Shown one piece after another: positions 19,441 to 33,478 of a stretch of 44,881 bases of DNA. The position numbers and the translations under genes are program-made. Source of the DNA: a phage; the sequence record PV730301.1. One strand, given 5' to 3'. Numbering within the stretch: position 1 is the stretch's first letter; every line of letters begins with the position of its first letter. The notes below the pieces were generated by a model. That model was not told where the DNA came from. It saw only the letters and a program-made list of their open reading frames with translations, and did not search any database.

Positions 19441-19956
19441 CTAGCCCCCGTGATTCTCATGAAAGCCGTAGCGAACAATCGCAGATTTCCGTGCACAAGC
19501 CGCGTCAAATATATTGTCATAGTGGCCCAGGAATATAAGTCTACCGTCAACGAATATCCCTGCTTTCCATTTAGCCGCCCGTGCGTTCCAGTGCACACCA
19601 GTGAGACCTGACTTGTTATCTTTTCTGCGAGATGCGTTTCGGTTATTATCAGTACGGGATACTTTCCGAAGGTTGCATGCACGATTATCATCCAGGATAT
19701 GATTTATATGGTCTACTTCATCATCAGGCCCTAAACGGTCATTGTTATACATCTCCCATGCGATACGATTAGCCCTGTAACTAACCCCTCTGACGACGAT
19801 ACATATGTAGCCCCTCTTACTTGGACTACCGGCTTCGTCTCCGGCGTTTATACTGTGTCTCGGGGAATACTTCCATCGTATCTTCCCCGTGTCAGGTTCG
19901 TAGTAGAAATGGTCATGCCAATTAATTAAATCTCTCATAAACCACCCCATCATCAT
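19441..19956 (-). CDS. HNH homing endonuclease
   Basis: HINHILDDNRACNLR HNH motif; overlaps the DNA polymerase stop. Confidence 0.7.
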   Translation of the reverse strand: MMMGWFMRDLINWHDHFYYEPDTGKIRWKYSPRHSINAGDEAGSPSKRGYICIVVRGVSYRANRIAWEMYNNDRLGPDDEVDHINHILDDNRACNLRKVSRTDNNRNASRRKDNKSGLTGVHWNARAAKWKAGIFVDGRLIFLGHYDNIFDAACARKSAIVRYGFHENHGG

Positions 19957-22154
19957 TTAGCATATCTGTACATTTCGCTACCTTCCGCGACAAGAGGGAA
20001 ACCATCCGCCCACTCAGGCAGCGAACACATTAATTTTTCCAGTTCGGCCACCGTGTACTCAGGTGTATCTGGAGTTTCACACACTAATTCATCGTGTACC
20101 GAAAGCACGATAGGATACCCGCCGTGTTCAACGTTAATCATCGCATATGCTAGTAAATCACGGCACAGAGCCTGAACAATGTTTTCGCAGGCCTTGCCGC
20201 CGTGTGTGTACAGGGTGGTCCATTGGCGGGTTAACTGGTTTTCGCCTTGATACTTGATTCGCACATTCGTGTTTACCCGCCCGTCTTCGTCTGTTTCCTT
20301 TGTCACACTAACGCCGATTCCCGGATACGAGAGGATGCGGCCTGACGGCAACTCCATACACAACCACCAACCCGGAACCTTCCTGCCGGATGAATCAAAT
20401 TCTACAGTGCGCCATATGCGGATAGCCCTTTCCCCGTTCCTGCGCAAGCGCGCTCCCGCCCAAAATTCACGACCAGGGTTACGAACAGCGGCTAAAATTC
20501 CGTCTTTAAGGTCGCGCCAGAACGCTACTGTTTCAGGGTGTGACTCGCGCCACATACGCTTGATCGCGTCGCATGTGCGCCACACTTTCTTGTCCAGAAT
20601 ATACGACGGTCGGTCGTCCTTTTCGCCCGGACGCGGCGGTCGCTTTGCTTCCTGAATACGCGCCCACTCATACCCACGTGCGGTAGCAGCCCAGATGTGG
20701 TCAGGGAAAGTCCCATCCATTGTTTTTGCCATCTCAATAAGGTCAAGACCTAAGTTTTTAGCAAACGTAACGAACGCTCCGACGCCCCCCTCATAGCCGA
20801 GGCCAAGCTCGCAAGCCTTGCCTATCTGTCTGATTTCCTTGTAGTTTTTCTTAATGTCATCTGGGTCCATGCCGAACATCTTACCTGCGGTTACGCAGTA
20901 AATATCCAGTCCGGCACGGAACGTATCGAGCGCGGTTTCTTCACCTGCCAGCCACGCAAGCCCGCGGCCTTCTACGTTAGAGTAATCGGCAACTACAAAC
21001 TTATGTCCTGCTTCCGGGATGATGCAGCTACGAACCGTCGAAGCCGTTAGCTTGGCTACGTCGAAACGGCGGTGTGCACGGCCCTTAAGTAGCGCCGCAA
21101 TTCCTTTACCTAGTTCATCATCGTGATAATACCCGCGTGCCAGGTTCTGCGGCTGGAAGCCTTTACCGGCCCATCGCAGAGTTCGTTTTGCCCCGCCGTA
21201 CTGCAAGCAACCACGGCGGCGGTCGTCCGACGAGCGGCCCAACAGCAGTGGGTTATACTTTGTCGATGCTGTGGACGCTGCCCCGAGTCGCATCTCGATA
21301 ATCGTGCGGGCGTCGTCGGGTAAATCATCGTCTGACAACAGGTCATTCAGCGTCGACTTCTGCGCGTTGTGGATTCGGTGCGCCGGTGCGAGTTCACGCA
21401 GAATCGGAAGGAAGTCATTCCCGGTAAGCGAGCCGCCGTATTTGCGTTGGGCTTCTTCCTGTAACTGTGCTTTGTGTTTCTCCACAGCTTCGATCGCAGC
21501 TTCTGCCAACGCAACGTCAACCTTAAACCCGCGGTCATTGATTAACTGGTCCAGTTCCAGTACGCGGTCTTCAAACTCTGAGTTACCCCACCGCGGCAGC
21601 TTATGGAAGACTTCACGCATTGCGGTGATGTCGCTCACAGCGTACTTGATGAACAGCACCCACTCGTCAGGGTGAGTTTCTGCGGTGTAGCGGCGGATTT
21701 TGTAGTTCTTCGGCGTCGGTTTAGAAAAACGCTTAATCAGCGCCTTGCCGCGTTTATCTTTCGCGTTGTCCGCAGATACGCCCAACACTTCGCACAATGC
21801 GTCAAGTGAACCCGGCAGAGCGTGACGGAAGGCCCAAATCATCGTATCAATGGTGTTGCTTACAGGAATATCAAAACCCCAGCAGTGTTTCATGATGAGT
21901 CTGTCGAACATTGAACCGTTGTGCCACACCATCTTTATGCGGCTGTTAGGTTTAACCAGGCGGCGTAACGCGCGGTGCAAATCCCCCGGCATGTCGCTGC
22001 CTTCGGTGCAATCCCATACCTGCACAGGCTCGTCGTCAAAAGCATATGTGCAGATAAGCACTTCTGTAGTTGGGTGTTCGGCGTAAGCGTAAGAACCGAC
22101 TTTCTTTAAATCGGCTTCGGAGAATGTTTCAAAGTCCAGGTATAAGTAGCTCAT
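19953..22154 (-). CDS. family A DNA polymerase with 3'-5' exonuclease domain
   Basis: Exo I motif DFETFS, motif C SVHDELV; start placed at ATG 22154 with AAGGA RBS. Confidence 0.9.
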   Translation of the reverse strand: MSYLYLDFETFSEADLKKVGSYAYAEHPTTEVLICTYAFDDEPVQVWDCTEGSDMPGDLHRALRRLVKPNSRIKMVWHNGSMFDRLIMKHCWGFDIPVSNTIDTMIWAFRHALPGSLDALCEVLGVSADNAKDKRGKALIKRFSKPTPKNYKIRRYTAETHPDEWVLFIKYAVSDITAMREVFHKLPRWGNSEFEDRVLELDQLINDRGFKVDVALAEAAIEAVEKHKAQLQEEAQRKYGGSLTGNDFLPILRELAPAHRIHNAQKSTLNDLLSDDDLPDDARTIIEMRLGAASTASTKYNPLLLGRSSDDRRRGCLQYGGAKRTLRWAGKGFQPQNLARGYYHDDELGKGIAALLKGRAHRRFDVAKLTASTVRSCIIPEAGHKFVVADYSNVEGRGLAWLAGEETALDTFRAGLDIYCVTAGKMFGMDPDDIKKNYKEIRQIGKACELGLGYEGGVGAFVTFAKNLGLDLIEMAKTMDGTFPDHIWAATARGYEWARIQEAKRPPRPGEKDDRPSYILDKKVWRTCDAIKRMWRESHPETVAFWRDLKDGILAAVRNPGREFWAGARLRRNGERAIRIWRTVEFDSSGRKVPGWWLCMELPSGRILSYPGIGVSVTKETDEDGRVNTNVRIKYQGENQLTRQWTTLYTHGGKACENIVQALCRDLLAYAMINVEHGGYPIVLSVHDELVCETPDTPEYTVAELEKLMCSLPEWADGFPLVAEGSEMYRYAK

Positions 22155-22276
22155 TTCTTTTTCCTTAAATCCAGTGCCTTCGTTTCGCTTAATCTTATTT
22201 TCATACAATCACGGCAAATCCACACATGCCGGTATCCGGCTCGGTACTTATCCGCGTACCACGGAAGCGGTTTCAT
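22151..22276 (-). CDS. possible small Cys-containing ORF (41 aa) coupled to the polymerase start
   Basis: ATGA overlap with the polymerase ATG; no clear SD, so weak. Confidence 0.2.
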   Translation of the reverse strand: MKPLPWYADKYRAGYRHVWICRDCMKIRLSETKALDLRKKK

Positions 22277-22365: not shown

Positions 22366-22995
22366 TTAGCGGCGGCGACGTTCGCGGCGCGGGGCTTCAT
22401 CTTCTTCATCGTCTTCCAGGTCGTCAGTGCTCGCTACTACACTGGAGCCCCCGAAGCGTTTACCTTCTCCCATATACTTGATGCCGAGGATGGTAGCGCA
22501 CAGGTTTTTCCAATCTTTGTGCCACCATAATTCTACAGATACGTTTGCGACACATCCGCTATATACCTGCTCGCCTTCTATTTCCTTTCCATCGATGTTG
22601 AAATCAGGCTCGGTTTGTTTTTCACCTTTAGCTGATGTCATAATTACCGGCTGGCGGTTGTTAGTAGCGCGGAAATACAGACCTTCTTCAAAATCTTCAA
22701 TCGGATTGTCGCGCATTGCCAGGTCACGGACGCAGCATTTGTCTGCGTGGTGGTCTACGCCGTAGTTGGCCTTCATCCATTTCTCGGCAGCAGCCGCCCC
22801 GATTGCCTCTGTTACAACTTCCAGTGCGGTGTCGTAAAGCGCGTCTATTTGAGGATGGTCAGGCTGCATAAGAACAGTTACCTGATATTTACCTTTAATC
22901 AGTTTACCGGTTTTCTTGTCCTCAGAGTCAGCAGCACGTTCGAATACGTTAACCCATGCAGTGTTTACTTTACGCAGATTCAGTTTAATACCCAT
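22366..22995 (-). CDS. DUF2815-like protein, probable ssDNA-binding protein
   Basis: Family recognition by eye; acidic C-terminal region DDLEDDEEDE as in SSB tails. Confidence 0.55.
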   Translation of the reverse strand: MGIKLNLRKVNTAWVNVFERAADSEDKKTGKLIKGKYQVTVLMQPDHPQIDALYDTALEVVTEAIGAAAAEKWMKANYGVDHHADKCCVRDLAMRDNPIEDFEEGLYFRATNNRQPVIMTSAKGEKQTEPDFNIDGKEIEGEQVYSGCVANVSVELWWHKDWKNLCATILGIKYMGEGKRFGGSSVVASTDDLEDDEEDEAPRRERRRR

Positions 22996-23085: not shown

Positions 23086-23259
23086 TTATTTAAGTTTCTT
23101 CGGAACTACCTTATAGATATAAGGTTGCACCGCCTCATGCTTTGAGTTCTTCTCTTCTGCAATTTTGTCGGCGTCGGCGCGTTTAGCGTGAACGGAAACA
23201 ATTTCAAGTTCTTGAATATAGTCTAGGCGGTAATATCGCGTGAGAATATAAACCATCAT
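23086..23259 (-). CDS. hypothetical protein (57 aa)
   Basis: GGAGGA RBS; ATGA coupling with the upstream gene. Confidence 0.45.
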   Translation of the reverse strand: MMVYILTRYYRLDYIQELEIVSVHAKRADADKIAEEKNSKHEAVQPYIYKVVPKKLK

Positions 23260-24527
23260 TCTAAATCCTCCTCTGTTACCTGATTCCACTCAGGGCGTTT
23301 GTCATCTGCCGTTGCAACACATGGTGCGCCTGGCTTACGTGTAATTAGTTTTTCGAGAATAGGCCACGCATCGGTATTTTTGAACGCGGCTTCTGCCTCT
23401 TTCGGAGATACAAGAGACGCCTTAAACAGCATTTTCCGGTCTATTTCATAAAATTCTGCGGCGTCTATTACCTCCTTCGCATCTTTCCACGCACGGTTGC
23501 CCATCTTACCCTCCACCAGCTTGTACCCCGGCACTTTCTTACCGGAATGCAACGCGGTGGCCATCGCTTTCTCAACCTTGTCGATGTGCTGGCGCAACAA
23601 CGGCAACTTCTCATACTCAGCTACGAGTTGCTCTGGCGTAAGCTCCAGCGCAAAGTCGTCTTCCAGTTCTTCCACCAGTACAGAATTAACCGTCTTTGTA
23701 CGCGCGGCGCATTGTTCCGAGAACCGACACCACTGACAACCATCGACCGACGGCCTGAAATCCGATGCTTTCAGGTTCTTCTTGCCGCGGGAATACGCAT
23801 CAAGGGCTAACAGCGCGCGTTTCTGGGCAAACTTAGCGAACAGTTCCAGACCTTCAACCGAGATGTCCCACTCCGACGCACCACCAGCGTACGGCTGGAA
23901 GATGACCAGGCGCACTACTGTGATGTTATAACGTCTCTTGAGTCGGCGATAAACACCGAGAGCGTAAAGCATAAGCTGTTTGTTTTCTTTCGCTTCGACA
24001 CGATGCCGCCCAGTTTTCAGGTCGCCGATGATAAGCATATGTTCATCGGTGTTAGCCAGTTCCTGTACGGCAACAAGGTCAGCGGTCCCGAACGTCTCAA
24101 CGCCTTCATACCCAGGATGCAATACCTCAGTAAGATTGACGCGCATTTCCGGCTTGGCGTAAGTCGCTACGTCGATAATCGCTTTGCAGTAGTCCGTGTA
24201 CTTGCGCACCTGCTCAATCATGTCTGCCGTAATCAGTACCGCACCTTTCATCGGACTGATTAGTTCCTTAATCTGGCCTTTACCTTCATCAAGCACGTAA
24301 GCGCCGACTTCGCGCTCTAACGGCAACGCAGTACCTTTGATGTACTGATTTAAATGGACCTCTGCTATAGTGTGGCACGCGGTTCCTGTAACGGCGGATT
24401 TGCCTGACGTGTTAGGAATATCTTTTTCACAGGCCAACGATGCACTGCACGTCAGCCACTTTTTAGCGCCCGACGGTGACAGTAAGGCGTGTACATCGTT
24501 ATTGCCGCCACGTTCTTTAAGAATCAT
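23256..24527 (-). CDS. DUF2800-like PD-(D/E)XK nuclease (Cas4-like exonuclease)
   Basis: IGDLKTG...EAKENKQLMLYA core and C-terminal Cys cluster CQWCRFSEQC. Confidence 0.65.
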   Translation of the reverse strand: MILKERGGNNDVHALLSPSGAKKWLTCSASLACEKDIPNTSGKSAVTGTACHTIAEVHLNQYIKGTALPLEREVGAYVLDEGKGQIKELISPMKGAVLITADMIEQVRKYTDYCKAIIDVATYAKPEMRVNLTEVLHPGYEGVETFGTADLVAVQELANTDEHMLIIGDLKTGRHRVEAKENKQLMLYALGVYRRLKRRYNITVVRLVIFQPYAGGASEWDISVEGLELFAKFAQKRALLALDAYSRGKKNLKASDFRPSVDGCQWCRFSEQCAARTKTVNSVLVEELEDDFALELTPEQLVAEYEKLPLLRQHIDKVEKAMATALHSGKKVPGYKLVEGKMGNRAWKDAKEVIDAAEFYEIDRKMLFKASLVSPKEAEAAFKNTDAWPILEKLITRKPGAPCVATADDKRPEWNQVTEEDLE

Positions 24528-25021
24528 TTCTCGGCTCCGTTAACTGTAAATCCGTATTTAATTTCGGCTTGCCTACGAGCCTTAGCCGCGTTCTCTAACT
24601 TATTGTAAGCCCCTAAATAAATTGGCACCCCGTCTACATAAATTCTGGCAACCCACTTACCAGAGCGTTTATGAAACCCAACGCCTTTAACACCCGAAGT
24701 ATTGTCAGTACGTATGTTTGTGCCGTGTGCGATACTACCTCGACGCATTTTTATAAGATTTTCTATTCTGTTATCAGTTCTATCTTTATTTTTGTGACGA
24801 ATTACTTCCCCTTGCGCCATTGGCCCGTTAAACATCTCCCAAACAACGTGGTGGATAAGTTTAGTAGCGCCGTTAAAACGTAGTATTTTAAATTCACTCC
24901 CATCGTTATCCACCCTCGTACTACCAGCTTCTTGCCCTATTTTTACAGATTTTGACGGGCTTATTTTCCAAAACAATTTCCCTGTGACAGGGTCATAGTC
25001 AAACAGTTCATGCCAATTCAT
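24524..25021 (-). CDS. HNH endonuclease
   Basis: HKNKDRTDNRIENL HNH-like motif; ATGA overlap with the upstream gene. Confidence 0.65.
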   Translation of the reverse strand: MNWHELFDYDPVTGKLFWKISPSKSVKIGQEAGSTRVDNDGSEFKILRFNGATKLIHHVVWEMFNGPMAQGEVIRHKNKDRTDNRIENLIKMRRGSIAHGTNIRTDNTSGVKGVGFHKRSGKWVARIYVDGVPIYLGAYNKLENAAKARRQAEIKYGFTVNGAEK

Positions 25022-25290
25022 GCTCTGCTCTCCCACTGGTCAATTAAATGTCGCGTTTGGTGATGACAATGCATAGCCCACCCATACATCGACTCAAAGA
25101 CATAAAAGTCAGGTTTGGCGAAAGTCGTGCGCTTAATCTGTGACACGTGTCGGCCTATATCTTTAGGGCGCGGTACTTCGCCTAAGTACGCCATCTCTTC
25201 CATCAGGTGCGCACCGGACGGCGCACGTAACAGCCATAGCGCCTCCGTATTATCCCGCCTGTCTACGGCGCGGTAGAGTTGGTAAATCAT
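25018..25290 (-). CDS. hypothetical protein
   Basis: ORF with GAGGG upstream of the ATG. Confidence 0.4.
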   Translation of the reverse strand: MIYQLYRAVDRRDNTEALWLLRAPSGAHLMEEMAYLGEVPRPKDIGRHVSQIKRTTFAKPDFYVFESMYGWAMHCHHQTRHLIDQWESRA

Positions 25291-25333
25291 ATTTCCGACC
25301 CTCAGTTAAAGCGGCCCGAAGGCCGCGGGATAG

Positions 25334-25846
25334 TTATTCTTCTTCGAAATACTTGTTCTTGATTGCCGTCAGGCGTTCCAGGTACTCAACCAGGTCTTCG
25401 TCTTTAATTGCAGCAATCTTCATCTTCTTACCAGTGAACTCTTCCAGCAGTTCATCAGAATCATCACACGCGGCATCACTCGGACCTTCGTTAATTGCGT
25501 CGTCGATAGCCTGAATCTGGTCACGAAGAGACTTATAATCGACTTCTTCTTTCTCTTCTTCCGGCTCTGGCGTAGGTTCCTCTACTTTAGCTTTACGCGG
25601 CTTGCGTTTCGGCTTCTCTTCTTCTTCTGCCGGTTTAGTGTCGACGATGTCTTCACCTTCGACCGGGATTTCTTTCCCGATGCCTGTACCCGGGTCGACC
25701 TCAAGTACCTCGCCAGTAACCGATACGTCTACAAGCATTTCACCCGCACGCTCAACCGGCGGAACCGGACGTTTCACACTATTTGCGGCAATCAGTTCAT
25801 GTGCAACTACGAAACGCTCCAGTAATTTTAAGAATTGGTCTAACAT
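25334..25846 (-). CDS. hypothetical acidic Glu/Asp-rich protein
   Basis: ORF with strong acidic low-complexity region; coupled to the upstream small gene. Confidence 0.45.
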   Translation of the reverse strand: MLDQFLKLLERFVVAHELIAANSVKRPVPPVERAGEMLVDVSVTGEVLEVDPGTGIGKEIPVEGEDIVDTKPAEEEEKPKRKPRKAKVEEPTPEPEEEKEEVDYKSLRDQIQAIDDAINEGPSDAACDDSDELLEEFTGKKMKIAAIKDEDLVEYLERLTAIKNKYFEEE

Positions 25847-26022
25847 TATTTGTTCTCCTGTTCGGCGATATTGTTAAGTTCTTTAAGAATGTCTTTCTGC
25901 ATGTTTTCTGGTAAGTATAAGAATGCTTGAGTAATCATGCCTTTAACGCTTCCGCGGCCTTCTAAGATGAAGTTGGGGAACCACACTTTCCAGTTAGCAT
26001 CATAATCTTTACGTTTAGCCAT
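25846..26022 (-). CDS. hypothetical small protein (58 aa)
   Basis: GAGAGGAGAGA RBS; first gene downstream of the early promoter. Confidence 0.45.
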   Translation of the reverse strand: MAKRKDYDANWKVWFPNFILEGRGSVKGMITQAFLYLPENMQKDILKELNNIAEQENK

Positions 26023-26054
26023 TTTGTTTCTCTCCTCTCGTTTAGTATGGGCTG

Positions 26055-26083
26055 ACTATAATAGCAAACTATTCACATGTCAA
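26055..26083 (-). promoter_or_regulatory. sigma70-like early promoter (TTGACA-17-TATAGT) with the conserved element
   Basis: Hexamers read from the sequence; a second weaker copy (TTGATA-17-TAATTA) at about 26099..26127. Confidence 0.5.
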
Positions 26084-26147
26084 TGGGCTTTTCTAAAATA
26101 ATTAATATGGTACTATTCACATATCAACCGACTAAGGAGTAATTGAC

Positions 26148-26363
26148 ATGCAACCATCTGAACTAGGCATCCGCGTAGAACAACGCCGCAAAGAACTCGG
26201 CATCTCCCAGCGCCGTCTGGCTGTCCTGGCTGGTGTTTCCCAGGGCGCAATTAACCAGCTGGCACTTGGAGTAACTCAGGACGTCCGCCCGGCGACGCTG
26301 TTTAAACTGGCGGAAGTGCTGCAAGTAGACGCTAAGTGGCTGGCATTCGGTGAAGGGGCTTAA
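26148..26363 (+). CDS. XRE-family HTH transcriptional regulator (Cro/CI-like)
   Basis: ELGISQRRLAVLAGVSQGAINQLALG helix-turn-helix; AAGGAG RBS; only plus-strand gene within the minus-strand block. Confidence 0.75.
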   Translation: MQPSELGIRVEQRRKELGISQRRLAVLAGVSQGAINQLALGVTQDVRPATLFKLAEVLQVDAKWLAFGEGA

Positions 26364-26380
26364 CGCCCCTTTCTTTTTGC

Positions 26381-28621
26381 CTATTCCAAATCTTCCTCGG
26401 TCACTATCAGCATCTCATTCGGTTCGTATATTGTCTTTGGTCTTAATCTGTCACCCATCTTTTCCGGTATACGGTATGTACCGGGGATAACCTCGCCGTT
26501 AGCATCACATCCTAGCATCAACTCACCGTCTTTCAGCATCTTCTCGAGATGGTGGTTAGTGATGGCATGGTCACCCGAGTTCGATACTATCTGCCGTTGG
26601 GTAAAACCTCGTCCGGTGTCGTCAGACTGTTGCAGGTCTTCCAGCGCGGCGAGTATGGATTCCTTCCTTCCTTCATCCTTCCCACGTTTTACGGCATTCT
26701 TTACGTTTTCTTTACCTTCCTTTGTCATCCCTTCTTCCCGCTCTTTCTCCTCGTCAGTTTTGAACGGCTCGAAGCCCCACGGCATCAGCACAAGCGCCTT
26801 GTGCGGTTCCGGCAGGTCGAGGTTTACGATTGTGCCGTATTCCTCTGTGCTACCGAGGAACTCAACCGCACGGTACTCTTTCGGTGGTGGCGCTTCACGG
26901 AACTGTACCGACTCCAGCACCATGCCAACCGTCTTCTGTTGAGGGCCATGCTTAAATTTCGAGTGGTATACGTTTATCTGACGGTCGGTCGCACGCTCAA
27001 TTGTCAGTTCTACGTCAACGCCCGCGTACAGCGCCCCACTGCCACGGGCTTTCTTGCCACCCTTCGGCGTGTGGTGAACAACGCCTACCGCGGCTTTAGT
27101 TGCGTCACGTACTTCTTTCAGGATGGCGATAACTTTACCCATACCGATTGCCGTTGATGAGCTGTTCTCGTCGAACTTATCAATCGTCAGGGCCAGGGTC
27201 TGGTTAAGGGTGTCGAACGCGACCATGCCGATAGGTTCATCACCTGCAGTTTCGCGCATCAGCTTAATCAGGTTTCTCAGTTTCCCGACTTCGCCCATGT
27301 CGATAACATGTACATAATCTTTACCTTCCTCGCCATATTTAGCCGCGAGCGCGTCGATACGTGTGCGGGTAGCCGCGCCACCTTCACCATCAATATAGAA
27401 GTGATGGCAACGCTGGGTATCCGCCCCTGCGAACCGGTATCCGGCGGCGCTAAGGTACATCATCCCGAGCGTATAAAACGATTTGTACGTGCCGGATTCT
27501 CCGACAATATCCCAGATGCAATCAGACGGCATGTACCCCTCGACGACGAAATCAGCCTTTACCGGTTCCGGTAACTCGTCCTCCTCTGAGTCTTCGTCGT
27601 CTTCCAGGTCGTCGAGACTGCATGAAACTGATTCACGCGCACCCCACCCGATAGCCTCGGCGACTTCACTGAACGGAAGCCCGGTCGCGTCGCACGCGTA
27701 CTTCCACACCTCTTTCGGGGACATGCCTTCGGTTGCCGTAATGTCGGTGTCGTGAATCATGGTTACGTTCGGCGCTTCGTATCCCTCGCGCGGGAAACAC
27801 AGAAGGAAGTCGTCCGGGCGCGGGGTCGGGTCGCTGTAGTTTTCTGCGTGTTCCGGCGTAGCTGGCATCTTAAGGCCGCGCGGCGTCATGACGCCCCCAT
27901 ACTCGAACGCCAGGGATTCGAACGCATCTGTAAACGCGGTGCGCAGTTCTTCCGGTATCTGATAATCCGATGCGCTGCTAACATCAACGGCGGGGATACC
28001 TTCCAGTAACTCGTCCGGGTCAATTAGGTCGTTGCGACGCGACCAGATAACAGTAGAGCCAACCGGCGGCAGATACATCGGCTGCGACAGAGTAAACCCG
28101 CTTCGGTCAGCACCCATGCCTTTGAAGAAATGCTCCAGTAATCCATGACGAACGCGGATGATGTCGCCGCCTTCAACCGGGCGAGCCAGCGGCATGACGA
28201 CACGGAACCGCGGTGACTCTTCGGTATGTGATGCCGTGGTGTAAAGGCACACCGCCTGGCGGCTACGCTTAACCAGGCGCACCGCTTCCTGATACTCTTC
28301 CGGTGTTGCACTGTCAAAGTCTAGATACGCCAGCGACGATTTGCTTACAGACGCATCGCAGCGATAGAAGAAGCCTTTACGCGCTTGCTTAAAGTCACCT
28401 GTTTCCGGGTCTTTTACGGTGCTGTGCGTAGCGTCACACGCGGCGGTGATATACCCCGGCGCGGTCTTCGGGTTAATTCCGCCACGAACGGCATCAAGCG
28501 GCTGGATTAACTCTTTCAGGTCGTCCAGTGTTGCCGTGTGTGTGGTTCTGACGTTTATATCCTTTTTCTCTGCCCGCGCGTTGCGACGTGACCACGAGTA
28601 GGATAAAATTACATCGGACAT
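26381..28621 (-). CDS. primase/helicase (N-terminal primase-like domain plus RecA-like AAA_25 domain)
   Basis: RecA-like region FYIDGEGG...VVHHTPKGGK; start at ATG 28621 (track gives a GTG at 28663); C-terminal VTEEDLE tail. Confidence 0.65.
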   Translation of the reverse strand: MSDVILSYSWSRRNARAEKKDINVRTTHTATLDDLKELIQPLDAVRGGINPKTAPGYITAACDATHSTVKDPETGDFKQARKGFFYRCDASVSKSSLAYLDFDSATPEEYQEAVRLVKRSRQAVCLYTTASHTEESPRFRVVMPLARPVEGGDIIRVRHGLLEHFFKGMGADRSGFTLSQPMYLPPVGSTVIWSRRNDLIDPDELLEGIPAVDVSSASDYQIPEELRTAFTDAFESLAFEYGGVMTPRGLKMPATPEHAENYSDPTPRPDDFLLCFPREGYEAPNVTMIHDTDITATEGMSPKEVWKYACDATGLPFSEVAEAIGWGARESVSCSLDDLEDDEDSEEDELPEPVKADFVVEGYMPSDCIWDIVGESGTYKSFYTLGMMYLSAAGYRFAGADTQRCHHFYIDGEGGAATRTRIDALAAKYGEEGKDYVHVIDMGEVGKLRNLIKLMRETAGDEPIGMVAFDTLNQTLALTIDKFDENSSSTAIGMGKVIAILKEVRDATKAAVGVVHHTPKGGKKARGSGALYAGVDVELTIERATDRQINVYHSKFKHGPQQKTVGMVLESVQFREAPPPKEYRAVEFLGSTEEYGTIVNLDLPEPHKALVLMPWGFEPFKTDEEKEREEGMTKEGKENVKNAVKRGKDEGRKESILAALEDLQQSDDTGRGFTQRQIVSNSGDHAITNHHLEKMLKDGELMLGCDANGEVIPGTYRIPEKMGDRLRPKTIYEPNEMLIVTEEDLE

Positions 28622-28680
28622 GTTGTATATTCCTTCAGCAAGTAATTTGGCCTCGGCGTTCACCGCGTCGGGGCTTTCTT

Positions 28681-28914
28681 TTATTCCAGGTCTTCTAAAG
28701 TGGCCGTCATTCCGCGAACTTCAGCAACGGCACTATATTTCCCGCCAACATTTTTCACGACACCGGATTTAACCAGTACACGTAACGACCCTTCAATGAT
28801 GGCGGAACTATAGTACTTAAAATAACTACGGCGCAAGTCGATAACGCTGCACGACCCTTTTTTACGTGTTAACGAAACGACCGCCGTAAATACGCGTGAC
28901 TGGAACTCGGTCAT
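28681..28914 (-). CDS. hypothetical protein with C-terminal TLEDLE tail
   Basis: ATGA coupling to the upstream AlpA-like gene. Confidence 0.5.
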   Translation of the reverse strand: MTEFQSRVFTAVVSLTRKKGSCSVIDLRRSYFKYYSSAIIEGSLRVLVKSGVVKNVGGKYSAVAEVRGMTATLEDLE

Positions 28915-32751: not shown

Positions 32752-33041
32752 GCCTCGCAACTGACATCCTGAAACGAAGCGGCATTGCGCCGCTGTCACC
32801 GAGAGCTAAAACACAGATATACAAGCGCCGCCGTAACGCGCTGTACCCGGAGATTCAGGCCAGACGCAAAGCGGTCCGCGCCTGTGGGTTCCAGAACGGG
32901 AGGGCGGTGAATCTCGGTGAGTTCAAGACAAAGGAACGCGCCGCTATCGCTAATCGGTTATTTAATTACTGGAAATCGCTGGGATACGATGATATTCCGA
33001 CGAAACCACAGAGACGACAATACATCTGGAGACATAAATGA
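32748..33041 (+). CDS. hypothetical basic protein
   Basis: ATGA coupling on both sides; Arg/Lys-rich. Confidence 0.45.
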   Translation: MSLATDILKRSGIAPLSPRAKTQIYKRRRNALYPEIQARRKAVRACGFQNGRAVNLGEFKTKERAAIANRLFNYWKSLGYDDIPTKPQRRQYIWRHK

Positions 33042-33478
33042 CTACTATCGCGTTCGACGGAAAGACAATGGCCTGTGATACCCGTGTTGTGTGCGGAAGT
33101 AACTGCTACAACACAGACATAAAGATATACGAGAATGATACTTATGTTATAGGGGTAGCGGGTGACGCTGGAGTTGGCACTATGCTTATCGATTGTCCGG
33201 GTATTCTTCGACCACAGCCCTACGACTTCGATTTCGAGGCCCTGGTGTTCGTGAAAGACACAGAAAAGGTGTATAAAGTCGCGTTTTATAAATCATGGGA
33301 TTGTGCACTTAGTTCGGTTATTCCAATTGCGGATAGCTTCGCCGCCGTGGGGTCTGGCTCGCCCTATGCGTTAGCCGCTATGGAATGCGGGTATTCGGCG
33401 CATGGTGGTGTAGCTGTTGCCTCGAAGTTCGACACTAACACCGGCGGCAAGATTATTACCAAACAACTATTAGGATAA
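33038..33478 (+). CDS. HslV/proteasome beta-like Ntn-hydrolase peptidase
   Basis: N-terminal MTTI (Thr nucleophile after Met removal), VIGVAGDAGVGTML and AAVGSGSPYALAA resemble HslV motifs. Confidence 0.65.
   Translation: MTTIAFDGKTMACDTRVVCGSNCYNTDIKIYENDTYVIGVAGDAGVGTMLIDCPGILRPQPYDFDFEALVFVKDTEKVYKVAFYKSWDCALSSVIPIADSFAAVGSGSPYALAAMECGYSAHGGVAVASKFDTNTGGKIITKQLLG

What the first reader, a model, noticed from the sequence alone, without database searches (positions are those of the whole stretch)
23256..28704. Shared C-terminal (V)T(E/L)EDLE tail on three replication-module proteins
Seen in sequence: the DUF2800 nuclease ends ...QVTEEDLE (codons at 23259..23279), the primase/helicase ends ...IVTEEDLE (26384..26404) and the 77-aa protein ends ...TATLEDLE (28684..28704). 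The underlying codons differ, so the conservation is at peptide level. Established knowledge: acidic C-terminal tails in T7 gp2.5 and gp4 and in bacterial SSB act as docking motifs for replisome partners. Inference: a common docking motif recruiting these proteins to one hub, possibly the polymerase or the DUF2815 SSB-like protein.
Basis: partly seen in the sequence, partly recalled or inferred. Interest (0 to 1): 0.6.

Follow-up and report, generated by a model that had tools for sequence, protein, structure and literature searches.

The report
Shared acidic tail on replication proteins
Several DNA-replication proteins of this Kagunavirus-type phage carry the same short acidic peptide ([A/V/T/C]-[S/T]-x-[D/E]-D-L), which is conserved across related phages and matched between proteins of the same phage, so it is most likely a common plug linking them to one partner in the replication machinery, much as acidic tails do in phage T7.

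Summary
Three minus-strand genes end in EDLE: the DUF2800 nuclease, the primase-helicase and a 77-aa protein. Chance does not explain it: 0 of 20,000 shuffles gave three shared C-terminal 4-mers, and the expectation is 1.6e-5.

The window is a Kagunavirus-like phage. The motif core is [AVTC]-[ST]-x-[DE]-D-L. There are two further conserved copies, one in the primase-helicase linker and one at the start of the acidic tail of the gp2.5-like SSB (DUF2815).

Across Kagunavirus, Jerseyvirus, Cornellvirus, Dhillonvirus, Eiauvirus and Klebsiella VLCpiS11a-like relatives the D-L core is kept. Codons, stop codons, downstream context and gene order all vary. This is peptide-level selection, not a ribosome-binding-site or terminator artefact.

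Distant phages with the same duf2800-gp2.5-polA module use different tails (DDFDDL, WDDE..DEV, ..DDL). Within one phage those tails are again matched between proteins. The nuclease tail fits its own phage's SSB tail better than other phages' SSB tails (permutation p <= 5e-5).

The best reading is a shared docking peptide, a new variant of the T7 gp2.5/gp4 acidic-tail principle. The acceptor is not identified. The polymerase, which never carries such a tail, and the SSB's ssDNA groove are the leading candidates. No binding has been shown.

The parts
23259..23279 (-). C-terminal motif VTEEDLE of the DUF2800 / PD-(D/E)XK (Cas4-like) nuclease (gene 23256..24527)
   Evidence: The motif is kept in about 70 orthologues at 42-93% identity. 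It is also kept in all 17 cluster representatives at >=35% identity. D, L and E are invariant across 33 distinct DNA versions with synonymous codon changes.
26384..26404 (-). C-terminal motif VTEEDLE of the primase-helicase (gene 26381..28663, probable start 28621)
   Evidence: Orthologues at 27-97% identity end T[ED][EDG]DLE, ATDDDLKD, SDEDLNS, ATDDDLAD, EEDDLEN or ATNSDLED. There are 38 distinct DNA versions, the stop codon is TAG, TAA or TGA, and the downstream context varies.
28684..28704 (-). C-terminal motif ATLEDLE of the 77-aa winged-helix protein p77 (gene 28681..28914; phrog_5169)
   Evidence: Orthologues end AT[LP]EDLE. The AF2 model has pLDDT 88 and shows three helices plus a beta hairpin, with a low-confidence tail. 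Foldseek hits are winged-helix domains such as LexA-N, MotA-N, IclR and RPA32C.
27602..27622 (-). Internal copy CSLDDLE (followed by DDEDSEEDE) in the linker between the primase and helicase parts of the primase-helicase
   Evidence: The copy is conserved as C[ST]x[DE]DL[EDA] in Kagunavirus, Jerseyvirus (VTCDEEDLADEE), Dhillonvirus (CTDADLDN), the Klebsiella group (CTDEDLDDD) and Eiauvirus (CTDEDLEDE).
22414..22434 (-). Internal copy ASTDDLE at the start of the disordered tail of the gp2.5-like SSB (DUF2815; gene 22366..22995). It is followed by an acidic run and an Arg-rich end, APRRERRRR
   Evidence: In a 49-sequence alignment (43-95% identity), A188, D192, L193 and D195 are nearly invariant, while the rest of the tail varies. 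In the AF2 model the flanks 183-187 and 198-209 have pLDDT below 50. The motif has pLDDT 50-70 with a one-turn helix at residues 190-193.
19953..22208 (-). Family A DNA polymerase (probable start ATG 22154): candidate acceptor of the tails. This is inferred, not shown
   Evidence: Pfam DNA_pol_A and a 3'-5' exonuclease domain. It is the only core module protein that never carries an acidic-hydrophobic tail in any lineage examined. It is 63-66% identical in lineages where the other module proteins are 27-47% identical.

Best explanation
The tail is a short linear docking motif with core [A/V/T/C]-[S/T]-x-[D/E]-D-L. It is flexible and acidic and has one hydrophobic anchor, the Leu. In this phage it is displayed at five conserved sites: the C-termini of the Cas4-like nuclease, the primase-helicase and a small winged-helix protein, the primase-helicase interdomain linker, and the first residues of the tail of the gp2.5-like SSB.

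All copies are proposed to bind, and therefore compete for, the same acceptor site in the phage's own replication and recombination machinery. This would recruit and exchange these proteins at the fork or at DNA ends.

By analogy with T7, the acceptor is most likely a basic patch on the family A polymerase and/or the ssDNA-binding groove of the gp2.5-like SSB. In the groove case, newly made ssDNA would displace the tail and hand the SSB over to the DNA.

Shown here: the motif exists, it is under peptide-level purifying selection, it is modular, and it co-varies between proteins of one phage. Inferred: that it binds anything, and which protein is the acceptor.
For: (1) Non-random occurrence: three identical C-terminal 4-mers, 0/20,000 shuffles. 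All six-frame [DE]DLE matches fall in replication genes.

(2) Conservation across Kagunavirus/Jerseyvirus, Cornellvirus, Dhillonvirus, Eiauvirus and Klebsiella VLCpiS11a-like phages, down to 27-47% protein identity and despite inversion of the primase-helicase gene. All 17 DUF2800 cluster representatives at >=35% identity end x-x-D-L plus 0-3 residues.

(3) Peptide-level selection: D, L and E are invariant while codons (TTA/TTG/CTG/CTT, GAA/GAG, GAT/GAC), stop codons and downstream sequence vary.

(4) Within-phage matching. Distant phages with the same module use different tails that are again shared inside one phage:
- Chi-like phage: nuclease ..WDDEDDDEV, SSB ..WDEDEDWEDEV, helicase ..VWDDEE, TerS ..DEVDDDEV.
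- Pseudomonas SS2019XI: primase, gp74, nuclease and SSB all end in ..[DE]DL.
- Staphylococcus P240: SAEDDFDKL versus AAEDDFDEL.
- Bacillus BCE1: DFEDEEF versus DFQDEEF.
- Paenibacillus FutureBee: SLEQEFAN versus SLEDEFAD.
A permutation test on 18 lineages gives a mean self score of 22.1 against 17.1 +/- 0.9 for shuffled pairings, p <= 5e-5. The result is the same when the DL clade is represented once.

(5) Modularity: an unrelated 62-aa ORF in the Klebsiella group ends AMTATDEDLE, against GMTATLEDLE in p77.

(6) Disorder: the tails have low pLDDT with a one-turn helix over the motif.

(7) Precedent. The T7 gp4 acidic tail binds basic patches of gp5/trx, and the gp2.5 tail competes with it (bioRxiv 10.64898/2026.05.20.726333). 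In Enc34, the acidic tail of the DUF2815 SSB inserts into the groove of a neighbouring molecule in the crystal, and that paper cites T7 work showing that the gp2.5 tail and ssDNA compete for one surface (PMC5686142).

(8) Phages of the same host carry different tails (Salmonella: Jerseyvirus DL versus Chi-like WDDE..DEV). This favours a phage-encoded acceptor that co-evolves with the tails.
Against: No binding has been shown, and no complex could be predicted with the tools available.

The T7 tails depend on a C-terminal aromatic residue (my recollection of the Richardson-lab literature). This motif has none, and it is not always terminal.

Bulk charge does not single out an acceptor: PolA has pI 6.8 and the SSB OB domain pI 5.6.

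The polymerase argument ('never has a tail', 'most conserved') is circumstantial. All phages examined that have the nuclease-SSB pair also have PolA, so the two acceptor candidates could not be separated.

One lineage, Vibrio D287, has the module without any such tails.

Within-phage similarity could in part reflect shared compositional drift of adjacent acidic tails. The permutation test controls for general acidity, but only across 18 lineages.
Confidence: 0.65

Rival explanations
1. Cis-acting autoinhibitory DNA-mimic tails. Each DNA-binding protein (nuclease, primase-helicase, winged-helix protein, SSB) folds its own acidic tail back onto its own DNA-binding surface to tune DNA affinity or specificity. 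There is no common partner.
For: In Enc34, removing the SSB tail abolishes discrimination between ssDNA and dsDNA. The T7 gp2.5 tail competes with ssDNA on its own surface (PMC5686142; PMC10359462). All carriers here are DNA-binding proteins. The p77 body is basic, with pI 10.
Against: Generic acidity would be enough for DNA mimicry. It would not need the same specific residues ([ST]-x-[DE]-D-L, or AEDDFD, or SLExEFA) on unrelated folds in one phage, nor their covariation across lineages. The motif is the most conserved part of tails that are otherwise variable.
Confidence: 0.15
2. The tails mimic a host signal, such as the host SSB C-terminal tip, and dock the phage proteins onto a host hub protein rather than a phage protein.
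For: Many lineage variants (DDFDDL, EFDDLS, NDFDDV) resemble the bacterial SSB tip D-F-D-D-D-I-P-F (resemblance from memory). All DL-clade hosts seen here are Enterobacterales.
Against: The DL motif lacks the terminal Pro-Phe and its carboxylate. Phages of the same host genus use different tails: Jerseyvirus DL versus Chi-like WDDE..DEV on Salmonella, with Smarc4 and APSE-2 also on Enterobacterales. That pattern fits a fast-evolving phage acceptor better than a conserved host pocket.
Confidence: 0.1
3. A shared degradation tag: the tail marks early replication proteins for coordinated proteolysis, for example by the phage's HslV-like peptidase or a host AAA+ protease.
For: The phage encodes an HslV-family Ntn peptidase at 33038..33478. 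C-terminal tags are a known route to bacterial proteases (general knowledge).
Against: The HslV-like gene is found in Jerseyvirus and only part of Kagunavirus. It is absent from Dhillonvirus records, which do carry the motif. Conserved internal copies in a linker and at the start of the SSB tail do not fit a terminal degron.
Confidence: 0.04
4. A nucleotide-level signal or chance: the codons encode a Shine-Dalgarno or translational-coupling element or part of a terminator, or the identity results from recent gene conversion or coincidence.
For: At the nuclease stop, GAGGAGGATTTAGAATGATG contains a GGAGG box 7 nt before an overlapping ATG of the downstream small ORF.
Against: The other two tails are followed by a terminator hairpin or by an intergenic hairpin, with no coupled start. 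In orthologues the nuclease tail is kept where the downstream sequence is a promoter-like TTGACA or a different gene, and where the GGAGG is replaced by GAAGAAG. Synonymous sites differ between copies and between orthologues. Chance is excluded.
Confidence: 0.03

Closest known systems
Acidic C-terminal tails of phage T7 gp2.5 (SSB) and gp4 (primase-helicase) that bind basic patches of gp5 DNA polymerase
   Same: In both cases a gp2.5-type SSB and a primase-helicase in a family A polymerase replisome carry similar flexible acidic tails. In T7 the tails compete for one acceptor (PMC10359462). The SSB here belongs to the gp2.5/Enc34 family.
   Different: The sequence is different: [ST]-x-[DE]-D-L with a Leu anchor and no terminal aromatic residue. 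In the SSB and in the primase-helicase linker the motif is internal. It is also carried by a Cas4-like nuclease and a small winged-helix protein, which have no T7 counterpart. The primase-helicase belongs to another family (phrog_3228/AAA_25, no PDB relative). Binding has not been shown.
Enterobacter phage Enc34 ORF6 (DUF2815 SSB) and its acidic tail
   Same: Same Pfam family (PF10991). In both, a disordered acidic C-terminal segment follows the OB fold. In the Enc34 crystal the tail lies in the groove of a neighbouring molecule (PMC5686142).
   Different: Going by the cloning primer in PMC5686142, the Enc34 tail ends ..WDEDEV. That is the Chi-like type, not the DL type. The paper does not report that the nuclease, helicase or terminase of the same phage group carries a matching tail.
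Bacterial SSB C-terminal tip (..DDDIPF) as a hub for genome-maintenance proteins
   Same: An acidic peptide with hydrophobic anchors on a flexible tail, used as a multi-partner docking signal.
   Different: The logic is reversed. In bacteria one protein (SSB) displays the tip and many partners have the pocket. Here many proteins display the tip, which implies one or a few pockets. The sequence also differs and has no terminal Pro-Phe.
duf2800-gp2.5-polA phage module
   Same: The window has this gene set and order: small protein, DUF2800 nuclease, DUF2815 SSB, PolA. The module is described in PMC8093625.
   Different: In the papers found, the module was described at the level of gene content. 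No shared or co-varying tails are mentioned in the passages read.

Membership tests
T7-type acidic docking tails (gp2.5/gp4 to gp5) | Flexible, strongly acidic C-terminal segment outside the folded domain | tested here: met
   The last 11 residues of the nuclease have net charge -5. The tails of the SSB and p77 have low pLDDT next to confident domains.
T7-type acidic docking tails (gp2.5/gp4 to gp5) | Similar tails present on both the SSB and the primase-helicase of one phage | tested here: met
   The primase-helicase ends VTEEDLE and has CSLDDLE in its linker. The SSB has ASTDDLE. The arrangement is conserved in relatives.
T7-type acidic docking tails (gp2.5/gp4 to gp5) | C-terminal aromatic residue (Phe) as the essential anchor (feature recalled from the T7 literature) | tested here: not met
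   The tails end D-L-E, D-L-K-D, D-L-S and similar, with no aromatic residue in the DL clade. More distant lineages do have Phe, of the type [DE]F[DEN][DN]L.
T7-type acidic docking tails (gp2.5/gp4 to gp5) | The tail binds basic patches on the family A polymerase | not testable with these tools
gp2.5 / Enc34 (DUF2815) SSB family (for the protein at 22366..22995) | Sequence membership of PF10991 and relatives with a solved OB-fold structure | tested here: met
   PF10991 at 45 bits against a cutoff of 26. phrog_112 at E 1e-32. The profile hits PDB 4jg2 and 4klk ('Phage-related protein DUF2815'). The AF2 model is a confident beta-rich domain.
Bacterial SSB C-terminal tip | Terminal ..D-D-D-[IL]-P-F on a bacterial-type SSB | tested here: not met
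   No Pro-Phe terminus. The carriers are a nuclease, a primase-helicase and a winged-helix protein. The SSB is of gp2.5 type and ends in RRERRRR.
Beta-clamp-binding motif | Q-L-[SD]-L-F or a similar motif | tested here: not met
   The tail sequences contain no Gln-Leu-x-Leu-Phe pattern.
Translational-coupling / Shine-Dalgarno element | Conserved purine-rich nucleotides at a fixed distance from a downstream start codon | tested here: not met
   Only one of the three tails precedes an overlapping start. The nucleotides and the downstream context vary among orthologues while the peptide is kept.
duf2800-gp2.5-polA module | Adjacent genes for a DUF2800 nuclease, a DUF2815 SSB and a family A polymerase | tested here: met
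   Genes at 23256..24527, 22366..22995 and 19953..22208, all on the minus strand. The module is described in PMC8093625.

The most novel reading that the evidence does not exclude
The tails form a lineage-private 'address code'. A single short motif, copied onto at least five sites including unrelated small proteins, makes nuclease, primase-helicase, winged-helix protein and SSB compete for one acceptor. That acceptor is the ssDNA groove of the gp2.5-like SSB. Each enzyme would therefore carry pre-bound SSB and release it onto the ssDNA it produces, an ssDNA-gated hand-off. Because the code differs between phage lineages (DL, FxxL, WDDE..DEV), replisome parts of co-infecting phages would not cross-react.
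Probability: 0.2. Interest if true: 0.7.

Novelty: new variant of a known kind. Interest (0 to 1): 0.55.

Why it matters
The duf2800-gp2.5-polA module is one of the commonest replication and recombination cassettes of tailed phages. The nuclease alone has 1,512 matching phage records and 11,809 cluster representatives. Its protein-protein wiring is unstudied.

A shared, co-varying peptide gives a concrete, cheap handle on that wiring. Synthetic peptides can fish out the acceptor. Tail swaps between lineages can test specificity. The motif also flags unannotated small proteins, such as p77 and the 62-aa ORF, as replisome-associated.

It would extend the T7 acidic-tail principle from two proteins to a whole set that includes a Cas4-like nuclease. 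It would also explain why these genes travel together.

Several of these phages (Kagunavirus, Jerseyvirus, Dhillonvirus) are used or proposed for therapy and biocontrol, so knowing how their replisome is assembled has practical value.

Tried and rejected
1. Ribosome-binding-site or coupling artefact. Suggested by GGAGG plus an overlapping ATG at the nuclease stop. Rejected by codon and context variation.

2. p77 as a duplicate of the C-terminal domain of the primase-helicase. BLASTP shows no similarity beyond a 7-residue LEDL match, E 0.33.

3. The N-terminal ATLDDLKE of the primase-helicase and the LSDDDLPDD of PolA as further motif copies. The first is not conserved in Jerseyvirus (SGTWDEFVE). 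The second lies in a conserved, probably folded segment of the polymerase. Neither is counted.

4. The search for homologous proteins on the nuclease returned only close relatives. An alignment-based locus scan added few new lineages. Distant lineages were obtained from tblastn and annotated records instead.

5. Separating PolA from the SSB as acceptor by finding phages with the nuclease-SSB pair but no PolA. Every phage examined had PolA.

6. Bulk charge and pI of candidate acceptors were uninformative.

7. AF2 of the SSB was run to see whether its own motif docks in cis. The tool reports only pLDDT and secondary structure, so the test is inconclusive. The motif has pLDDT 50-70 and a one-turn helix.

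8. Link to the HslV-like peptidase. It is not co-distributed with the motif.

9. Literature searches found no prior description of the shared tails. The library is incomplete, so this is not proof of absence.
Full report
**What the window is.** The region matches Kagunavirus-type siphoviruses (Guernseyvirinae) at 87-92% nucleotide identity, for example Escherichia phages SZH-1, ZCEC5 and Bas73. The annotated relative Bas73 has the same minus-strand replication operon. In the window this operon holds, in order:
- an excisionase-like HTH protein;
- a 77-aa protein (p77);
- the primase-helicase;
- several small proteins;
- a DUF2800/PD-(D/E)XK nuclease;
- a 57-aa ORF;
- a DUF2815 gp2.5-like SSB;
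- a family A polymerase.

This is the duf2800-gp2.5-polA module described in PMC8093625.

**Check of the observation.** The three proteins end ..NQVTEEDLE (23259..23279)..LIVTEEDLE (26384..26404) and ..MTATLEDLE (28684..28704), as reported.

The two VTEEDLE tails differ only at third codon positions. The p77 tail uses other codons again.

In all six reading frames of the window, [DE]DLE occurs five times, always in frame in a replication gene. Besides the three C-termini there are CSLDDLEDDEDSEEDE in the primase-helicase linker and ASTDDLEDDEEDE at the start of the SSB tail.

Among 74 non-overlapping ORFs, EDLE is the only C-terminal 4-mer seen more than once. A triple never arose in 20,000 shuffles, and the expectation is 1.6e-5.

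**Conservation.** I collected about 95 related loci from viral contigs and phage records.

The nuclease keeps the tail in essentially all full-length orthologues. Examples: Kagunavirus/Jerseyvirus ..[VA][TS]E[ED]DLE or ..TEDDLEA; the Klebsiella VLCpiS11a-like group ..A[ST]DEDL[SE]; Dhillonvirus ..ATDEDLSNE; Cornellvirus ..ATDSDLDD; Eiauvirus ..VKDDDLVD.

The primase-helicase keeps it down to 27-33% identity..TTEGDLE..SATDDDLKD..VASDEDLNS..SEEDDLEN..ATNSDLED. It does so even where the gene lies on the opposite strand to the nuclease.

p77 is restricted to Kagunavirus and Jerseyvirus and always ends A[TS][LP]EDLE, with rare single changes.

In a search of 1.84 billion cluster representatives, all 17 full-length DUF2800 representatives at 35% identity or more end x-x-D-L plus 0-3 residues.

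The conserved core is therefore [AVTC]-[ST]-x-[DE]-D-L, not the terminal Glu. The two internal copies are conserved as well:
- The linker copy is C[ST]x[DE]DL in Kagunavirus, Jerseyvirus, Dhillonvirus, the Klebsiella group and Eiauvirus.
- In the SSB copy, A188, D192, L193 and D195 are nearly invariant in 49 sequences of 43-95% identity, while the rest of the tail is a variable series of acidic and basic blocks.
- Dhillonvirus-type nucleases carry an additional internal TATDEDLGD.

**Peptide level or nucleotide level?** At the nuclease stop the tail codons contain GGAGG seven bases before an overlapping ATG. A coupling signal was therefore a serious rival.

It fails. I found 33, 38 and 16 distinct DNA versions of the three tails. 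In these, D, L and E are invariant as residues while codons vary (TTA/TTG/CTG/CTT; GAA/GAG; GAT/GAC). The stop codon is TGA, TAA or TAG. The downstream sequence is an overlapping start, a TTGACA promoter-like box, another gene or a terminator hairpin. Selection therefore acts on the peptide.

**Covariation between proteins of one phage.** This is the most informative result. More distant phages with the same module have other tail sequences, yet the tails are again matched inside each phage.

| Phage | Matched tails |
|---|---|
| Chi-like Salmonella phage 37 | nuclease ..AWDDEDDDEV, SSB ..AWDEDEDWEDEV, helicase ..VWDDEE, small terminase ..DEVDDDEV |
| Pseudomonas SS2019XI | primase ..DDDEDDDL, gp74 ..GEGEDL, nuclease ..EGEDDL, SSB ..GGDDDL |
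| Burkholderia AH2 | gp76 ..GDDEL, nuclease ..VFDDL, SSB ..PADGL, TerS ..PAEGL |
| Staphylococcus P240 | nuclease SAEDDFDKL, SSB AAEDDFDEL |
| Bacillus BCE1 | DFEDEEF and DFQDEEF |
| Paenibacillus FutureBee | SLEQEFAN and SLEDEFAD |
| Achromobacter ewii | ASDFAE and ASDFAG |
| Cornellvirus | DSDLDD in both |

I scored the best 6-residue BLOSUM62 match between the last 14 residues of each nuclease and the last 60 residues of each SSB in 18 lineages. The same-phage mean is 22.1 against 17.1 +/- 0.9 for permuted pairings (p <= 5e-5). With the DL clade counted once it is 21.8 against 16.9 +/- 1.1.

Because every tail in the test is acidic, this controls for composition. Matching tails on unrelated folds that change together are what is expected if they share one co-evolving binding site.

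The tail is also modular. An unrelated 62-aa ORF between the SSB and PolA genes in the Klebsiella group ends AMTATDEDLE, almost the p77 tail. One lineage, Vibrio D287, lacks tails on both the nuclease and the SSB.

**The carriers.** p77 is predicted with confidence (pLDDT 88) as a three-helix winged-helix domain with a beta hairpin, followed by a low-confidence tail with a one-turn helix over LEDL. Its nearest solved folds are LexA-N, MotA-N, IclR and RPA32C winged helices. The Foldseek E-values are only about 1e-2, so this assigns a fold class, not a family. It is not a copy of the C-terminal region of the primase-helicase.

The SSB model has a confident OB-type domain. Residues 183-187 and 198-209 have pLDDT below 50. 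The motif between them has pLDDT 50-70 and a one-turn helix at 190-193. This pattern is typical of a binding motif in a disordered tail, but it gives no information on contacts.

**Mechanism.** The closest precedent is T7. [quoted passage not shown] The gp2.5 tail competes with gp4 for gp5. The gp2.5 tail also interacts with other replication proteins and influences its own DNA binding.

For the DUF2815 family, the Enc34 structure shows the acidic tail lying in the groove of a neighbouring molecule. That paper also cites the T7 result that tail and ssDNA compete for one surface.

I therefore propose that the five copies are interchangeable ligands for one acceptor site. The site would lie on the polymerase and/or in the SSB groove, and would recruit and exchange the nuclease, the primase-helicase, p77 and the SSB.

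Evidence bearing on the acceptor is circumstantial. The polymerase is the only core protein that never carries such a tail, and it is much the most conserved. The SSB has structural precedent for tail binding, but it is itself a carrier.

A phage-encoded acceptor is favoured over a host one. Phages of the same host genus use different tails: Jerseyvirus and Chi-like phages on Salmonella, with Smarc4 and APSE-2 also on Enterobacterales.

**Rivals.**
- Cis-acting DNA-mimic tails explain the acidity but not the sequence-specific matching.
- A host-SSB-tip mimic is not excluded but is disfavoured for the reason just given.
- A degron for the phage HslV-like peptidase is unlikely. That gene is missing from Dhillonvirus, and conserved internal copies do not fit a terminal tag.
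- A nucleotide-level signal and chance are excluded.

**Comparison with known systems and novelty.** This works like the T7 acidic tails and like bacterial SSB tips, but it is not a member of either by sequence. It has no terminal aromatic or Pro-Phe, it has a Leu anchor, and some copies are internal.

What differs from T7 is the set of carriers (a Cas4-like nuclease, a winged-helix protein and an interdomain linker) and the lineage-specific co-varying 'code' across the widespread duf2800-gp2.5-polA module. I found no paper describing this, though the searchable library is incomplete.

I rate it a new variant of a known kind. It is of moderate to good interest because it is directly testable with peptides and tail swaps.

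Noticed in passing
window 25334..25846 (-): A 170-aa very acidic protein (pI 4.4, phrog_3127) ends ..NKYFEEE. jackhmmer links it to small proteins just upstream of the DUF2800 nuclease in Jerseyvirus, Cornellvirus, Dhillonvirus, the Klebsiella group, Eiauvirus, Serratia Smarc4 and Paenibacillus FutureBee. It looks like a fourth conserved, uncharacterised member of the module, with its own acidic-aromatic tail (YFEEE, YYEVEE, FFEFEEE, EEYDEE).
   Followed up: partly
window 19441..19956 (-) and 24524..25036 (-): Two ORFs of 171 and 170 aa with similar N-termini (..YEPDTGKIRWKYSP.. and ..YDPVTGKLFWKISP..) and similar C-termini (..VRYGFHENHGG and ..IKYGFTVNGAEK). They sit inside the replication operon and are absent at these positions in Bas73. 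They look like homing-endonuclease-type insertions, but I did not run a domain search on them.
   Followed up: no
relatives L011, L041, L043, L045-L048 (PolA ORFs): Some relatives have a PolA ORF of 1031-1032 aa instead of about 733 aa. This suggests an intein or a large insertion in the polymerase gene of those phages.
   Followed up: no
window 22369..22395 (-): The SSB tail ends in an Arg-rich block, APRRERRRR, after the acidic run. Relatives have repeated acidic/basic blocks such as DEDDEDEEEERPRRRRR. This is unusual for an SSB tail, and its function is unknown.
   Followed up: partly
window 33038..33478 (+): An HslV/proteasome-beta-like Ntn peptidase gene (N-terminal MTTIAF..). tblastn finds it in Jerseyvirus and part of Kagunavirus, and distantly in jumbo phages, but not in Dhillonvirus.
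   Followed up: partly
window ~21320..21340 (-), PolA residues ~285-300: A conserved internal polymerase segment, LL[SAED]D[DEP]D[LF]PD[DE], present across Kagunavirus, Dhillonvirus, the Klebsiella group and Eiauvirus. It resembles the tails but probably lies in a folded region.
   Followed up: partly
window 26148..26363 (+) and hairpin 26352..26372: A plus-strand XRE-type HTH gene converges on the primase-helicase gene. Its last codons overlap a GC-rich hairpin that lies about 10 nt downstream of the primase-helicase stop codon and could act as a terminator for both genes.
   Followed up: no
L053 12417..12605 (also L051, L056): In Klebsiella VLCpiS11a-like contigs a 62-aa ORF between the SSB and PolA genes, unrelated to p77, ends AMTATDEDLE. 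That is nearly the p77 tail, GMTATLEDLE.
   Followed up: partly
window 23086..23259 (-): A 57-aa ORF whose ATG overlaps the nuclease stop codon (ATGA). It has a weak match to DUF7336, below the Pfam cutoff. This is the only one of the three tails followed by a translationally coupled gene.
   Followed up: partly
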